DNA from: Deltaproteobacteria bacterium RBG_16_49_23
GTDB lineage: Bacteria > Desulfobacterota > BSN033 > UBA1163
Assembly: GCA_001798855.1 (NCBI GenBank)
Contig: MGQQ01000104.1
Span: forward strand, 1,093 to 65,092
Length of the DNA: 64,000 nt
Direction: 5' to 3'
Shown in pieces: positions 37,738 through 50,752 of the stretch. Every line of letters starts with the position of its first letter. The first letter of the stretch is position 1. Position numbers and translations under genes: made by a program. The notes under the pieces are model-generated. The model ran no database searches, was not told the DNA's origin, and saw only the letters and a list, made by a program, of their open reading frames with translations.

Positions 37738-37906
37738 ACCCCGTTAGAAAGAAGAAGACTTTCTAACGGGGTTTACTATCTATAGTGAATGACTTAAAAA
37801 AGTTGTCACCCTGAGCACTCACGAAGGGTCTCACGGTCTTGTGATTCTTCACTTCGCTCAGAATGACAGCTGTAAGAATGTTACATTACTTAAGTCGTTC
37901 ACTATA
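37738..37906. repeat. Composite repeat: family C hairpin (ccccgttagaaa...tttctaacgggg) plus MITE-like unit with TIRs tatagtgaatgacttaa / ttaagtcgttcactata
   Basis: Seen directly. The internal ccctgagc..cgaaggg motif is shared with the 7.0 kb MITE. Confidence 0.6.
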
Positions 37907-42897: not shown

Positions 42898-42966
42898 ACC
42901 CCGTTAGAAATAATGCCCCGCTTCTCTGTAGCGGGGTTCAATGCCCCGCTGGAATTTCTAACGGGG
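42898..42966. repeat. Repeat family C hairpin element (ccccgttagaaa ... tttctaacgggg)
   Basis: Outer 12-bp inverted termini with an inner ccccgcttctctgtagcgggg hairpin. Copies at 37738 and within pheT at 48105. Confidence 0.7.
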
Positions 42967-47922: not shown

Positions 47923-47945
47923 GAGAAGGAAATTCGAAAGTCCGT

Positions 47946-48048
47946 GAGAGCGTAAGGCGCAAGTCGCAAGGGGTTTAAACTCCTTACCCCTAACGCCTTA
48001 CACCTAACGAATAGAAGATTTCGATATTCGGATTTAGGATTTAGGGGC
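47946..48048. repeat. Repeat family E, copy 1, upstream of pheT
   Basis: gagagcgtaaggcgcaagtcgcaaggggtttaaactccttacccctaacgccttacacctaacgaatagaa is ~93% identical to the reverse complement of 50646-50714. It is followed by ttcgatattcggatttaggatttagggg. Confidence 0.75.
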
Positions 48049-50637
48049 ATGAAGGTTAGTCTCAACTGGCTCAGGGATTACGTGGACATCCGGATGGGGG
48101 TTCACCCCGTTAGAAATTCCAACGGGGCATTACCCCCCCCCGGAATTATTCTAAAATCTAACCCCGCTACAGCCGCCGGCCCAGGCTCCGCCCCAGAGGG
48201 AGGGCCTCCCTCCGGGGCAGAAGCCCTTCCGGGGCGGAGCCTGGCCCGGAGGGAGCAGCGGGACATTATTTCTAACGGGGTGAAGGAGTTAATCAACCTT
48301 CTGACCATGGGAGGGTTAGAGGTTGAAGCGGCCACACCAACAGGCCAGGGATTTGAGAAGATCGTTGTGGCTGAGATTGAATCCATCCGGAGGCACCCCA
48401 GTGCGGACCGTCTTTCCCTGGTCGAGGCGAAAACCTCCGGAGAGAAATTTTCGATCGTCTGCGGCGCCACGAATATCCGTGAAGGGCAGAGAGTTCCGCT
48501 GGCCCTGGTCGGAACGAAACTCCCCGGCGGCCTTGAGATCAAGAGGTCGAAGATCAGAGGGGAGGTTTCCGAGGGAATGCTCTGTTCGGAGATCGAGCTG
48601 GGTTTGGGTCAGGATGCCACCGGGATCATGATCCTCGACCGCGACGCCCCCCTGGGCGTGAGCGTGGGGGAGACCCTCGGATTGACGGATACGATTCTCG
48701 ATATCAGCATCACACCCAATCGTCCGGATTGCCTCTGTGTGATCGGAGTGGCAAGAGAGATTGCGGCTCTTACACATCAGAAGATGAAGTATCCGGGCCT
48801 GTCGCTTTCCGACACGGGAAAAGAGATTCACCAAAAAACGTCCGTGACCCTTCTGGACCCGGACCTCTGTCCCCGATATGTGGCGCGCATGATCGAAGGG
48901 GTGAAGATCGGCCCCTCTCCGCACTGGATCCGAAACCGGCTGGAGAAGGCAGGCATTCGCTCCATCAATCAAGTCGTCGATGTGACCAACTATGTGATGA
49001 TGGAGTATGGCCAGCCCCTCCACGCTTTCGATTTTGAACTGCTGGAGGAGGGGAGAATTGAGGTCCGGAGAGCCCGGAAGGACGAGGGGTTTACCACACT
49101 GGACGGAGTCAAGAGAGTCCTTGATGAAGAGATGCTCATGATCTGCGATGGAGTTAAACCGGTGGCCATTGCCGGTGTGATGGGAGGGCTCAACTCGGAG
49201 ATCAGGGCCGAGACCCGGACCGTCCTTCTGGAGAGCGCCTACTTCCATCCGATGAATAATCGAAGGACTTCTAAAAGGCTCGGTTTTGAGACAGAAGCCT
49301 CCTACCGGTTCGGAAGGGGGATTGATTACGGAGGATGTCTGAATGCGGCCAACCGCGCAGCCTCATTGATTGCCGAACTGGCGGGAGGCAAGGTCGTTGA
49401 AGGCGTGGTGGATGCTTATCCGAATCCCATCCGGCCCAATCCGATCCGTTTGAGCATCCTCAACGCCAATCGGATCCTGGGGACAGAGATCCCGGCCCAA
49501 CAGGTCAGGGTTTATCTGGAGGATCTGGAACTGGATGTCCGTGTAGAGGATGAAGCGACCCTGAGCGTAACCCCCCCTTCCTTTCGTGGCGATATCGAGA
49601 GGGAGATCGATCTGATTGAGGAGGTGGCGCGCATGGATGGATATGAGAAGATCCCGCTCACTCTTCCGAAGGGGCCTCCTTCTCCCGAAGAGATGAGCCG
49701 GGAGTTGATCCTTGAGCAGAAGGCAAAAGATCACCTCATCCAGCATGGTTACAACGAGGTGATCACTTATAGCTTTACGGCCCCCCGCTCTTTGAATGGG
49801 CTCGGCCTCTCTCCGGACGATCCGAGGGGGAAGTTCCTTCCCATCCTGAACCCTCTGACAGAGGATTCTTCCGTGATGAGAACCTCATTGATACCGGGCT
49901 TGATGGAGACCGTCCGGTATAATATCTCTTATAAGAATGTCAACCTCAGAATCTTCGAGTTGAAAAGGGTCTATCTGACCGCTGAAGGGGAACGACTTCC
50001 AAGAGAGGTTAAATATCTGACAGGCCTGGCCATGGGAATGGAAGGGGATCCCCATTGGGCCTCTTTAACCAGGCCGGTCGATTTTTACGATGTCAAGGGT
50101 TGCATCGAGGATCTCTTCGAAGGGTTGCAGGTCAAAGGGGTAAAGTTTGACAGGGCTGAGGATGTTCCCTATCTTCATCCCGGAAAGGCATCGAAGGTCC
50201 TTCTCGGAAAAGAGGTTCTGGGCGTTCTGGGCGAAGTCCATCCCCATGTATTGGCCCATCATGAGATTCACGGGAAGGTCTATCTCTTCGAGATCGATTT
50301 CGGCCGGATGGTGAACTATGCCGTAGAGGAAAGGAGATTCCGGCCCTTGCCGAAATTTCCCGCAGTCCACCGGGACCTCTCCATCGTGGTTGAGGATCAT
50401 CTTGAAGCGGAAAAAGTGGAAGAGGCCATCCGGATGCTTCCGCAGCCTTTTATCGACGAAGTCAATCTCTTCGATGTCTATCAGGGGGCGCCTGTTCCTC
50501 AAGGGAAGAAGAGCCTCTCCTATCGCATCCGGTATCAAGCCAATGACCGGACCCTGACAGACGATGAAGTGAACCAATATCACGAGAAGGTCATCTCCCG
50601 GTTGAGGGAAATCTTTAAGGCCGAATTGAGAGGATAA
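48049..50637 (+). CDS. pheT: Phenylalanine--tRNA ligase beta subunit, with an in-frame ~60-aa insertion near the N-terminus
   Basis: MKVSLNWLRDYVDI ... LTMGGLEVE N-terminus and B3/4 and B5 domains. C-terminal FDVYQG ... anticodon-binding-like domain. 862 aa. Confidence 0.9.
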   Translation: MKVSLNWLRDYVDIRMGVHPVRNSNGALPPPGIILKSNPATAAGPGSAPEGGPPSGAEALPGRSLARREQRDIISNGVKELINLLTMGGLEVEAATPTGQGFEKIVVAEIESIRRHPSADRLSLVEAKTSGEKFSIVCGATNIREGQRVPLALVGTKLPGGLEIKRSKIRGEVSEGMLCSEIELGLGQDATGIMILDRDAPLGVSVGETLGLTDTILDISITPNRPDCLCVIGVAREIAALTHQKMKYPGLSLSDTGKEIHQKTSVTLLDPDLCPRYVARMIEGVKIGPSPHWIRNRLEKAGIRSINQVVDVTNYVMMEYGQPLHAFDFELLEEGRIEVRRARKDEGFTTLDGVKRVLDEEMLMICDGVKPVAIAGVMGGLNSEIRAETRTVLLESAYFHPMNNRRTSKRLGFETEASYRFGRGIDYGGCLNAANRAASLIAELAGGKVVEGVVDAYPNPIRPNPIRLSILNANRILGTEIPAQQVRVYLEDLELDVRVEDEATLSVTPPSFRGDIEREIDLIEEVARMDGYEKIPLTLPKGPPSPEEMSRELILEQKAKDHLIQHGYNEVITYSFTAPRSLNGLGLSPDDPRGKFLPILNPLTEDSSVMRTSLIPGLMETVRYNISYKNVNLRIFELKRVYLTAEGERLPREVKYLTGLAMGMEGDPHWASLTRPVDFYDVKGCIEDLFEGLQVKGVKFDRAEDVPYLHPGKASKVLLGKEVLGVLGEVHPHVLAHHEIHGKVYLFEIDFGRMVNYAVEERRFRPLPKFPAVHRDLSIVVEDHLEAEKVEEAIRMLPQPFIDEVNLFDVYQGAPVPQGKKSLSYRIRYQANDRTLTDDEVNQYHEKVISRLREIFKAELRG
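48105..48280. mobile_element. Family C repeat element inserted in-frame inside pheT
   Basis: Bounded by ccccgttagaaa / tttctaacgggg, identical to the termini of the intergenic copies at 37738 and 42898. Contains a long internal inverted repeat gcccaggctccgcccc...ggggcggagcctggcc. It encodes a Pro/Gly/Ala-rich segment absent from canonical PheT N-termini. Confidence 0.65.
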
Positions 50638-50645
50638 ACCCCATT

Positions 50646-50752
50646 TTCTATTCGTTAGATGTAAGGCGTTAGGGGTAAGGAGTTCAAACCCCTTGCGACC
50701 TGCGCCTGACGCTCTAACGTTTTTTCGGATTTCGGGCTTCGGATTTAGACTC
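50646..50752. repeat. Repeat family E, copy 2 (inverted), downstream of pheT
   Basis: ttctattcgttagatgtaaggcgttaggggtaaggagttcaaaccccttgcgacctgcgcctgacgctc then ttcggatttcgggcttcggatttagactc. Confidence 0.75.

What the first reader, a model, noticed from the sequence alone, without database searches (positions are those of the whole stretch)
48105..48280. Palindromic repeat element inserted in-frame inside the essential pheT gene
The 862-aa PheT ORF begins canonically (MKVSLNWLRDYVDI), then reads ~60 aa of Pro/Gly/Ala-rich low-complexity sequence (GVHPVRNSNGALPPPGIILKSNPATAAGPGSAPEGGPPSGAEALPGRSLARREQRDIISNG) before resuming the conserved ELINLLTMGGLEVE block. Bacterial PheT normally has only ~10 residues between these two blocks. 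The nucleotide segment has the same termini (ccccgttagaaa ... tttctaacgggg) as the intergenic hairpin elements at 37738-37773 and 42898-42966. It also carries a long internal inverted repeat (gcccaggctccgcccc...ggggcggagcctggcc). A MITE-like element therefore appears to have landed in an aminoacyl-tRNA synthetase gene and been tolerated as an in-frame insertion. It may form a large RNA hairpin inside the pheT mRNA.
Basis: partly seen in the sequence, partly recalled or inferred. Interest (0 to 1): 0.7.

Follow-up and report, generated by a model that had tools for sequence, protein, structure and literature searches.

The report
Mobile palindrome read through inside pheT
A 176-base palindromic mini-transposon sits in-frame inside the essential phenylalanyl-tRNA synthetase beta gene, and it belongs to an apparently undescribed family, found in many bacterial phyla, that often lodges in-frame in housekeeping genes and can disappear without a scar.

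Summary
Window 48105-48280 is a 176-nt element with perfect 13-nt inverted ends (CCCCGTTAGAAAT). It adds exactly 60 codons to pheT between RMGV and KELINLL. 107 of the 120 closest orthologues are 801-803 aa and read straight through.

It is a non-autonomous transposon (MITE). Two more copies lie in the window. A 4-bp target duplication (T-N-N-A) is perfect in 34/55 and 62/89 copies. Three clean filled/empty sites exist among relatives, and an independent assembly carries the identical insert.

- Identical ends with unrelated 0-370-nt interiors occur in Thermodesulfobacteriota, Planctomycetota, Omnitrophota, many Patescibacteria and Gammaproteobacteria.
- About 10% of copies lie deep inside real genes (UvrA, IF-2, ProB, FolD, PheS, PheT, NadE and others). 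All have a 3n length and almost all are read as xPVRN...ISNGV.
- Empty pheT alleles that are 99% identical to filled ones nest among filled alleles, implying seamless loss or allele exchange.

Translation of the insert is inferred, not shown. No transposase was found. In-frame MITEs are already known (Rickettsia RPEs), so this is a new member of a known kind with unusual breadth.

The parts
48049..50637 (+). pheT ORF (862 aa including the 60-aa insert). The host gene is intact and under purifying selection.
   Evidence: all five PheT Pfam domains in the orthologues; codon-position identity to L001 is 0.905/0.927/0.71.
48105..48280 (.). The element, end to end (176 nt). It is read in-frame as PVRNSNG...DIISNG. 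Only 2 of its 6 frames are stop-free.
48105..48117 (+). Left terminal inverted repeat, CCCCGTTAGAAAT.
   Evidence: Identical in 145 unique copies from many phyla.
48268..48280 (+). Right terminal inverted repeat, ATTTCTAACGGGG.
48101..48104 (+). Left 4-bp flank TTCA, at the position of the target-site duplication. Here it is the reverse complement of the right flank, not a direct copy.
   Evidence: The same TTCA/TGAA pattern occurs in L075.
48281..48284 (+). Right 4-bp flank TGAA. It matches the native GTG AAG (Val-Lys) of empty orthologues.
48173..48253 (.). Nested 81-nt (27-codon) palindromic segment at the apex, 81% GC. It is absent from the canonical 94-95-nt copies of this subfamily and encodes the Pro/Gly/Ala-rich part of the insert.
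42899..42966 (.). 68-nt copy of the same subfamily in opposite orientation, 14 nt 3' of tRNA-Val, flanked by TTTA/TTTA. The site is empty in relatives L002 and L004.
37739..37771 (.). 33-nt minimal copy (two ends plus a 9-nt loop), flanked by TTTA/TTTA, intergenic.

Best explanation
**What it is.** Window 48105-48280 is a non-autonomous DNA transposon (MITE). It consists of two perfect 13-bp terminal inverted repeats (CCCCGTTAGAAAT) around a variable interior.

**Insertion.** It inserted at a T-N-N-A tetranucleotide (native GTG AAG, Val-Lys) in codons 18-19 of pheT, with the 4-bp staggered-cut duplication typical of the family.

**Why the gene stays open.** Element plus duplication is 180 nt (3n), and the element lacks stop codons in the frame used. 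The gene therefore stays open and the ribosome reads through. This yields a PheRS beta subunit with a 60-residue Pro/Gly/Ala-rich, probably disordered, loop just before the first helix of the N-terminal B1 domain.

**Why the family tolerates genes.**
- Its ends are stop-free in two of three frames.
- In the favoured frame they encode a hydrophilic [N/H/Y/D]-PVRN ... ISNG-V.
- Selection removes every genic copy that is not 3n and stop-free.

**Mobilisation.** It must occur in trans, by an enzyme not identified here. My best guess is a DDE transposase of the IS1380/piggyBac type, whose chemistry naturally gives 4-bp duplications and footprint-free excision.

**Shown:** the insertion and its boundaries, family membership, the target duplication, polymorphism, cross-phylum spread, the in-frame rule, and nesting of empty alleles among filled ones.

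**Inferred:** translation of the insert, its neutrality, and the enzyme class.
For: **Insertion versus empty site.**: empty L004 reads GGGGTAAAGGAG; filled L001 reads GGGGTAAA|CCCC..GGGG|TAAAGGAG.

**Family.**

**Target duplication.** Perfect 4-bp flanks in 34/55 copies against 3/55 in a shifted control; none extends to 5 bp. Replicated at 62/89. A G just outside the target is preferred: 39/106 against 16% background, p = 2e-7.

**Mobility.** Three filled/empty sites exist within 10 kb among relatives. Contigs break at the element.

**Not an artefact.**

**Cross-phylum spread.** 51 pairs in 116 genome loci against 2 pairs in 120 viral control loci.

**In-frame habit.**
- All 15 copies at least 60 codons deep in ORFs are 3n.
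- Pfam confirms hosts whose domains are split by the insert.
- Residue-level gaps appear against solved ProB and UvrA.
- About 20 Pfam-supported hosts are read as PVRN..ISNG against 1 in the other open frame.

**Host gene functional.** Third-codon identity is 0.71 against 0.91-0.93 at positions 1 and 2.

**Insert drifts about neutrally once resident.** 5.6% divergence against 8.3% at silent sites.

**Seamless loss or exchange.**
- P0203 (empty) is 99.0% identical to P0002 (filled).
- P0189 (empty) is 98.4% identical to P0184 (filled).
- P0002 and P0184, both filled, are only 95.3% identical.
- These figures come; the empty site is exact.

**Background.** piggyBac excises without a footprint through 4-nt flank hairpins (PMC5861402). 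IS1380 is its prokaryotic counterpart (PMC5718144).
Against: - There is no proteomic or RNA evidence that the insert is translated. The argument is evolutionary (frame and stop-codon filter).
- No autonomous element and no transposase was found in 1.57 Mb of element-bearing DNA.
- Copies of 24-33 nt that appear mobile are awkward for a paired-end dsDNA transpososome.
- The window's own flanks (TTCA/TGAA) are not a direct duplication.
- The target is T-N-N-A, not strict TTAA.
- The structure model was unusable (pLDDT 45), so surface exposure of the loop is not demonstrated.
- Nesting of empty among filled alleles could reflect homologous recombination between strains rather than excision.
Confidence: 0.8

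Rival explanations
1. The element is removed or skipped at the RNA or translation level (self-splicing, processing, or ribosomal bypass of the hairpin), so mature PheT is normal. The direct GGGGT words on both sides could serve as take-off and landing sites.
For: The mRNA is predicted to form an extremely stable compound hairpin (-116 kcal/mol, z = -7.4). GGGGT occurs on both sides of the element. Palindromic mobile elements bypassed by the ribosome are known from yeast mitochondria (my own knowledge, not checked here).
Against: - If the insert were skipped, frame and stop codons would not matter.
- Yet both pheT variants (111 and 180 nt) and all 15 deep genic copies are 3n and stop-free. They use essentially one of the two open frames.
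- No Rfam family, ribozyme or intron model matches.
- Interiors are unrelated between copies, so no conserved catalytic RNA can exist.
Confidence: 0.05
2. One ancient insertion in the common ancestor of the window lineage and the P0002 lineage, followed by many precise losses. Under this view the two occupied lineages were not hit independently at the same site.
For: The two copies share the same site, orientation and subfamily modules. Seamless loss or exchange is evidently frequent within the P0002 clade, so many losses are not implausible.
Against: - The shared modules are 61/63 and 23/25 identical, while the host genes are only 71% identical at third codon positions.
- Within one clade the resident element drifts about as fast as silent sites, so an ancient copy should be far more diverged.
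- The flanks follow each lineage's local sequence: TAAA where relatives have GTAAAG, TGAA where they have GTGAAG.
- Filled alleles are polyphyletic.
Confidence: 0.25
3. The family is moved, or maintained, by a host Xer-type tyrosine recombinase, or by another structure-specific enzyme acting on the hairpin or cruciform, rather than by a DDE transposase. This would be analogous to REP/REPIN elements and their single-copy RAYT gene.
For: - No transposase or autonomous copy was found.
- Units of 24-33 nt, essentially one hairpin, recur and can be identical in different phyla.
- 3 of the 5 XerA/C/D-type genes in the sampled loci have an element 83-433 nt upstream, in two phyla, against about 0.1-0.25 expected.
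- Abutting elements form a 13-4-13 palindrome resembling a recombinase core site.
Against: - A strict 4-bp duplication with a two-fold symmetric target (G-TNNA-C) is the classic signature of a staggered DDE strand transfer.
- Tyrosine recombinases use 6-8-bp overlaps and do not duplicate targets (my own knowledge).
- The Xer association rests on three cases.
Confidence: 0.12
4. The extra segment is an adaptive, functional addition to PheRS (a new domain or regulatory loop), not a tolerated parasite.
For: The segment is fixed in two assemblies that differ by 1%. It has persisted across about 5% divergence in the P0002 clade. RPE inserts have been proposed as raw material for protein evolution (PMC10969869).
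Against: - Its length and sequence differ between lineages (37 versus 60 aa).
- It evolves at about the silent rate and faster than the protein: 4/37 aa changes against 95% identity in the flanks.
- It is lost repeatedly.
- It is absent from 107 of 120 orthologues.
- Its sequence is low-complexity.
Confidence: 0.05

Closest known systems
Rickettsia palindromic elements (RPE; Ogata et al. 2000, as summarised in PMC10969869)
   Same: Short palindromic repeats that sit in-frame inside unrelated housekeeping genes, encode a recurrent peptide and are tolerated as extra protein segments. Intergenic copies also occur.
   Different: - RPEs are about 100-150 bp and confined to Rickettsia and its relatives. 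As far as I know they are not described with sharp terminal inverted repeats plus target duplications.
- This family has perfect 13-bp ends and a 4-bp duplication.
- Its sizes go down to 24 nt and its interiors are unrelated.
- It occurs in at least six phyla.
- No sequence comparison with RPE consensus sequences was possible here.
Bacterial MITEs in general (Correia/NEMIS, Nezha, ERIC, Coxiella QMITE1/2; PMC10969869, PMC5896051)
   Same: Non-coding, with terminal inverted repeats, target-site duplications and strong hairpins. They are multi-copy, polymorphic between strains, and occasionally form in-frame fusions.
   Different: - Most described bacterial MITEs have a TA duplication (PMC5896051) and are restricted to a species or genus.
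- Here the duplication is 4 bp (T-N-N-A).
- The ends are identical across phyla.
- About 10% of copies are deep in genes.
- The family-wide length distribution is biased to 3n.
piggyBac superfamily and the prokaryotic IS1380 family (PMC5861402, PMC5718144)
   Same: Ends begin with CCC. The duplication is 4 bp and T/A-rich with T...A at its edges. Empty sites are seamless, as expected from piggyBac's footprint-free excision through 4-nt flank hairpins.
   Different: The target is not strictly TTAA. No IS1380/piggyBac-like transposase, and no full-length element with these ends, was found. The link is an inference from end and duplication features only.
REP/REPIN elements and RAYT transposases
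   Same: Very short palindromic units that are abundant in genomes. They are possibly mobilised by a single-copy host-encoded enzyme rather than by an IS.
   Different: REPs are extragenic, species-specific, carry a conserved 5' GTAG-type tetranucleotide and make no target duplication. This family makes a 4-bp duplication, enters genes and spans several phyla.

Membership tests
MITE (non-autonomous terminal-inverted-repeat transposon) | Short, with no coding capacity of its own. | tested here: met
   Sizes run from 24 to 393 nt, and 176 nt here. The only ORFs called on intergenic copies are 41-110-aa spurious calls.
MITE (non-autonomous terminal-inverted-repeat transposon) | Terminal inverted repeats shared by all copies. 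| tested here: met
   CCCCGTTAGAAA(T) is perfect at both ends in 145 unique copies.
MITE (non-autonomous terminal-inverted-repeat transposon) | Target-site duplication of fixed length. | tested here: met
   The duplication is 4 bp: perfect in 34/55 and 62/89 copies, against 3/55 in a shifted control, and never 5 bp. The window's pheT copy is an exception (TTCA/TGAA).
MITE (non-autonomous terminal-inverted-repeat transposon) | Filled and empty sites among close relatives. | tested here: met
   Three sites show this: within pheT, at the pheT stop codon, and 3' of tRNA-Val.
MITE (non-autonomous terminal-inverted-repeat transposon) | A related autonomous IS with the same ends that encodes the transposase. 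| tested here: inconclusive
   - There are no 0.5-4.5-kb pairs of ends with a transposase in 356 loci. L018 and L275 are two short copies bracketing ordinary genes.
- No multi-copy long ORF was found.
Rickettsia palindromic elements (RPE) | Palindromic repeat inserted in-frame in protein-coding genes and encoding a recurrent peptide. | tested here: met
   xPVRN...ISNGV in UvrA, IF-2, ProB, FolD, PheS, PheT, NadE and others.
Rickettsia palindromic elements (RPE) | Sequence similarity to the RPE-1 to RPE-10 consensus sequences; Rickettsiales hosts. | not tested
   No RPE consensus sequences were available to the tools. The hosts here are Thermodesulfobacteriota, Planctomycetota, Omnitrophota, Patescibacteria and Gammaproteobacteria, so it works like an RPE but is not filed as one.
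piggyBac / IS1380-type element | Ends starting CC(C) and a 4-5-bp duplication. | tested here: met
piggyBac / IS1380-type element | Strict TTAA target (piggyBac proper). | tested here: not met
   The duplications are TAAA/TTTA (16), TGAA/TTCA (7), TCAA/TTGA (5) and others. No perfect duplication was TTAA.
piggyBac / IS1380-type element | A DDE transposase of that family is associated with the ends. | tested here: inconclusive
   None was found. No targeted search with an IS1380 transposase was run.
REP / REPIN-RAYT | Extragenic, no target duplication, conserved 5' tetranucleotide, RAYT gene flanked by REPs. | tested here: not met
   Genic copies are common and a 4-bp duplication is present. No HUH gene was noticed near the copies.
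Self-splicing intron, intein or known structured RNA | Match to a curated RNA family, or a conserved catalytic core. | tested here: not met
   Rfam at gathering thresholds finds only two tRNAs. The permissive scan gives only generic hairpin matches at 10-25 bits, against gathering scores of 45-100. Interiors are unrelated between copies.
Integron attC site | Arms ordered 5'-RYYYAAC ... GTTRRRY-3', with AAC/GTT towards the inside of the hairpin. | tested here: not met
   By inspection, the order here is 5'-CCCCGTTAGAA ... TTCTAACGGGG-3', the opposite polarity, and the seventh positions do not fit.

The most novel reading that the evidence does not exclude
The CCCCGTTAGAAAT elements would be a pan-bacterial class of 'protein-compatible' micro-transposons, possibly one of the most widely distributed MITE families.
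- Their mobile unit can be as small as a single 24-33-nt hairpin.
- They are moved by an enzyme that is not a conventional IS-borne transposase. Candidates are a conserved host-encoded or Xer-linked recombinase, or a piggyBac-like enzyme acting on hairpins, either of which excises seamlessly.
- Their sequence and length have been shaped at the family level by selection for being translatable, so that essential genes serve as safe, reversible landing sites.
Probability: 0.25. Interest if true: 0.85.

Novelty: new member of a known kind. Interest (0 to 1): 0.62.

Why it matters
- **Scope.** It extends the Rickettsia RPE phenomenon, selfish palindromes living inside essential proteins, from one intracellular genus to free-living and ultra-small bacteria of many phyla, with a single recognisable end sequence.
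- **Annotation.** It gives annotators a simple diagnostic (xPVRN...ISNGV, or CCCCGTTAGAAAT inverted pairs) for odd insertions and mis-called starts. GenBank starts this very PheT inside the element.
- **Protein tolerance.** It offers a natural experiment on which loops of UvrA, IF-2, PheRS, ProB, FolD and others tolerate 10-60 extra residues.
- **Mechanism.** It poses a concrete open question: which enzyme keeps 13-bp ends identical across phyla, moves units of about 30 nt, and leaves no scar? A bacterial footprint-free cut-and-paste system would also be of practical interest.

Tried and rejected
- **AlphaFold2 of the 862-aa PheT** with a 28-sequence alignment gave mean pLDDT 45 and was unusable. 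I used sequence alignment to solved PheRS chains instead.
- **Peptide searches for other hosts.** The word-indexed search and the exhaustive HMMER search of 1.84 billion representatives returned almost only 41-110-aa spurious ORFs over intergenic copies. Representatives at 50% identity hide insert-bearing alleles, so these searches say little about genic frequency.
It was reused as an independent sample of copies.
- **Viral-contig scan** found essentially only singleton chance hits (2 pairs in 120 loci). It served as a negative control; no vector was found.
- **Autonomous-element hunts.**
  - Long pairs of ends.
  - DNA inward of unpaired ends, which turned out to be decayed short copies.
  - L018 and L275, which are two copies bracketing ordinary genes.
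  - Multi-copy ORF clustering.
  - All were negative.
- **Rfam** and **verbatim literature searches** for the end sequences found nothing relevant.
- **Classical terminator role** for the intergenic copies: not flagged by the consensus scan.
- **GGGG next to the target as a strong hotspot** that would explain reuse of the pheT site: only marginal (3/106, including the pheT site itself).
- **attC, intron, intein and CRISPR-repeat readings** were rejected on anatomy.
- The exact window protein is not on record in the contig index.
Full report
**1. The observation**

- The + strand ORF at 48049-50637 encodes an 862-aa PheT. It begins MKVSLNWLRDYVDIRMGV, continues with HPVRNSNGALPPPGIILKSNPATAAGPGSAPEGGPPSGAEALPGRSLARREQRDIISNGV, and resumes with KELINLLTMGGLEVE.
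- Of the 120 closest database proteins (72-100% identity), 107 are 801-803 aa and read ...DIRMG[V/L]KELINLL.... The window therefore has exactly 60 extra residues.
- The 12-mer CCCCGTTAGAAA occurs six times in the 64 kb, always as inverted pairs: 37739/37771, 42899/42966 and 48105/48280. The chance expectation is 0.29. Relaxed matching adds nothing above chance.
- The terminal inverted repeat extends into the flanks to 17 perfect bp. There is an inner 38-nt inverted repeat.
- The RNA is predicted to fold at -116.2 kcal/mol, z = -7.4.
- The coordinates given are exactly the end-to-end limits of the element.

**2. It is an insertion with clean boundaries**

- The empty site in relative L004 reads GTGGGGGTAAAGGAG. 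The filled site in L001 (protein P0002, which carries a shorter 37-aa version at the same position) reads GGGGTAAA|CCCC...107 nt...GGGG|TAAAGGAG. That is a 4-bp duplication of TAAA and +111 nt, or 37 codons.
- In the window the element (176 nt) plus one flank copy adds 180 nt, or 60 codons. Its flanks are TTCA and TGAA. The right flank matches the native GTG AAG. The left flank is its reverse complement rather than a direct copy.
- An independent ENA assembly, 99.06% identical over 4.6 kb with 42 mismatches, carries the identical element and flanks. This excludes an assembly artefact.
- P0204 (OGP75044.1) equals window PheT residues 66-862. The source is therefore Deltaproteobacteria bacterium RBG_16_49_23, and the public annotation starts the protein inside the element.

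**3. It is a mobile family**

- Both intergenic copies in the window are flanked by TTTA/TTTA.
- The tRNA-Val copy shares its ends and subterminal modules with the pheT copy, in opposite orientation.
- Among close relatives there are three clean filled/empty sites:
  - within pheT;
  - at the pheT stop codon, filled in L001, L004, L362 and L364 and empty in L002;
  - 3' of tRNA-Val, filled in the window and empty in L002 and L004.
These hold 51 inverted pairs 24-393 nt apart.
- By contrast, 120 viral-contig loci with 123 end matches hold only 2 pairs. Pairing is therefore not a by-product of the search.
- About 30 'unpaired' ends have a partner with 1-2 mismatches.
- Flanks are perfect 4-bp direct repeats in 34/55 copies, against 3/55 in a shifted control, and never 5 bp. 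The commonest are TAAA/TTTA, TGAA/TTCA and TCAA/TTGA.
- An independent metagenome sample gives 62/89.
- A G just outside the target is preferred: 39/106 against 16%, p = 2e-7. This suggests a two-fold symmetric G-TNNA-C target.

**4. Breadth**

- The paired copies come from MAGs labelled Thermodesulfobacteriota, Deltaproteobacteria or Syntrophaceae; Pirellulales, Phycisphaerae or Sedimentisphaerales; Omnitrophota; many Patescibacteria (Saccharibacteria, Moran-, Nealson-, Komeili-, Jorgensen-, Giovannoni- and Doudnabacteria, and Kazan); Gammaproteobacteria; KSB1; and Stahlbacteria. Some lie on contigs of 0.3-2 Mb.
- Interiors are unrelated: 117 clusters for 145 unique insertions. Their GC content tracks the host's (r = 0.41, p = 3e-6). 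The 12-13-nt ends are identical throughout.
- Rfam has no such family. The end sequences appear verbatim in no paper of the searchable library, apart from unrelated primers.

**5. In-frame residence is a habit of the family**

- Of the 145 unique insertions, 15 lie at least 60 codons deep in ORFs that read through them. All 15 have (length + 4) divisible by 3.
- Pfam confirms the hosts, with domains split by the insert:
  - From: UvrA, IF-2, an IorA-like TPP enzyme, ArsA, ProB, an AIR-synthase-like protein, FolD, KdsB and a PyrK-like protein. One search also shows PheT hit again at a different site (the B5 domain) in an Omnitrophota MAG.
  - From: PheS, NAD synthase, a radical-SAM enzyme, an ABC ATPase and V-ATPase subunit E.
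- Alignments to solved structures break exactly at the insert. In ProB, 27 query residues face 6 in the chain. UvrA resumes right after ...ISNGA.
- For the window PheT, alignment to E. coli PheT (3pco_B) resumes at query residue 80, equal to chain residue 20. This places the insert before the first helix of domain B1.
- Nearly all genic copies are read as [N/H/Y/D]PVRN...ISNG[V/A].
- This follows from the sequence. One frame of each end contains TAG or TAA. One gives PVRN/ISNG. One gives the hydrophobic TPLE/FLTG.
- In the PVRN frame, the last G of the end plus the T-initial duplication always makes a GTN (Val) codon.
- The other open frame was seen once, in a prepilin-like signal peptide (L071).
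- The bias to 3n lengths extends to the whole family: 65/117 subfamilies (p = 7e-7), and 44/91 among non-genic singletons (p = 0.002).
- In the window copy, only 2 of 6 frames are open.

**6. History at the pheT site**

- On a pheT tree the filled alleles are polyphyletic. The window pairs with the empty P0003 (87.7%). P0002 pairs with the empty P0005 and P0004.
- Window and L001 pheT DNA are 84.7% identical, and 71% at third positions. Yet the shared element modules are 61/63 and 23/25 identical. The flanks follow each lineage's local sequence.
- This favours two separate acquisitions at the same tetranucleotide, or homogenisation, over one ancient insertion. I put the ancient-insertion rival at 0.25.
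- Inside the single cluster at ≥90% identity around P0002 there are 839-aa filled alleles and 802-aa empty alleles:
  - P0203 (empty) is 99.0% identical to P0002 (filled).
  - P0189 (empty) is 98.4% identical to P0184 (filled).
  - P0002 and P0184, both filled with the same insert type, are only 95.3% identical.
- The empty site is exact.
- Among filled alleles that share the insertion, the element has diverged 5.6%, against 8.3% at silent sites. It therefore drifts about neutrally.
- So the element has been lost seamlessly, or exchanged by recombination, several times.
- The host gene stays under purifying selection.

**7. Anatomy of the window copy**

- Canonical copies of this 'delta-type' subfamily are 94-95 nt (L033, L066, L102). 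They have conserved left (about 60 nt) and right (about 25 nt) modules and a small apical hairpin.
- The window copy carries an extra 81 nt (27 codons, 81% GC) at 48173-48253 in that apex. This piece is unique to the window and its sister assembly.
- L001 carries 12 extra nt at the same place.
- Every step kept the frame.

**8. Mechanism**

- **Shown:** a cut with 4-bp stagger at T-N-N-A, identical 13-bp ends, mobility, and seamless empty sites.
- **Inferred:** mobilisation in trans by a DDE transposase.
- Ends starting with CCC, a 4-bp T/A-rich duplication and scar-free loss resemble piggyBac and its prokaryotic counterpart IS1380 (PMC5861402, PMC5718144). With that chemistry, the two donor flanks carry complementary 4-nt overhangs whatever the duplicated word is, so exact repair is the default.
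- This is a hypothesis. No autonomous copy or transposase was found, and TTAA is not the target.
- Three observations do not fit comfortably:
  - Units of 24-33 nt appear mobile. The same 32-nt element occurs in a Saccharibacteria MAG and a Planctomycetia MAG.
  - Imperfect flank pairs are mostly two different legitimate T-N-N-A words, and double mismatches are as frequent as single ones.
  - Three of the five Xer-type recombinase genes in the sampled loci have an element 83-433 nt upstream.

**9. Comparison and verdict**

- In-frame palindromic elements are established for Rickettsia (RPEs) and seen for other MITEs (PMC10969869, PMC5896051). The kind is therefore known.
- This family meets the MITE criteria except for a demonstrated autonomous parent. 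It works like an RPE but is not one by host range or anatomy.
- I rate it a new member of a known kind. Its unusual phylogenetic breadth and a family-wide signature of selection for translatability raise its interest.

Noticed in passing
window 47929-48019 and 50643-50733: A different repeat: a 91-nt inverted repeat, 89% complementary, brackets the whole pheT gene, with one arm in the pheS-pheT spacer and the other just after the stop codon. Relatives have much shorter spacers (75 and 14 nt, against 127 nt here). Only these two copies occur in the window.
   Followed up: partly
window 48241-50637 (GenBank OGP75044.1 = P0204): The public annotation of this protein (798 aa, Deltaproteobacteria bacterium RBG_16_49_23) starts inside the element (MARREQRDIISNGVKEL...). 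It therefore loses the conserved N-terminal 18 residues. The start call is an artefact caused by the insert.
   Followed up: yes
L049:6067-6135, L119:3953-4053, L083:1843-1903: In three loci from two phyla, an element lies 83-433 nt upstream of a XerA/C/D-type tyrosine recombinase gene. These are 3 of the 5 such genes in 1.57 Mb of element-bearing DNA. From about 250 insertions, roughly 0.1-0.25 would be expected by chance.
   Followed up: partly
L008:7826-7878 and L252:5700-5749: PheRS is hit repeatedly. An Omnitrophota PheT carries a copy in its B5 domain, and a metagenomic PheS carries one in the class II core domain. Together with the pheT B1 site, that makes three different PheRS sites.
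   Followed up: partly
L046:112-143 and L106:225-256: Identical 32-nt elements (CCCCGTTAGAAATCAAAGATTTTCTAACGGGG) occur at different loci in a Saccharibacteria MAG and a Planctomycetia MAG.
   Followed up: no
L018:2166-5034 and L275 (minus strand, 2,866-nt span): Two short copies bracket ordinary genes: a 686-aa secreted protein in L018, and CheY-like and CheB genes in L275. L275 has matching outer TTTA flanks, so it may be a composite mobile unit or simply two independent insertions.
   Followed up: partly
L242-L361: 35 of 130 sampled copies abut another copy's end and share a single 4-bp word (...CTAACGGGG-TNNA-CCCCGTTAG...). Elements therefore often land on the duplicated target of a resident copy, forming a 13-4-13 palindrome.
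   Followed up: partly
L363:1, L011:1-94, L078:1389-1482: Contigs start or end at, or within a few bases of, an element. L363 begins 5 nt after the pheT element boundary. The repeat, or its filled/empty polymorphism, breaks short-read assemblies.
   Followed up: no
window 48101-48104 / 48281-48284; L075, L019, L033, L052: In 5 of 55 copies the two 4-bp flanks are reverse complements (TTCA/TGAA, TTTA/TAAA) instead of direct repeats, which lengthens the stem. Possible causes are donor-flank carry-over, hairpin-templated correction, or chance among the commonest target words.
   Followed up: partly
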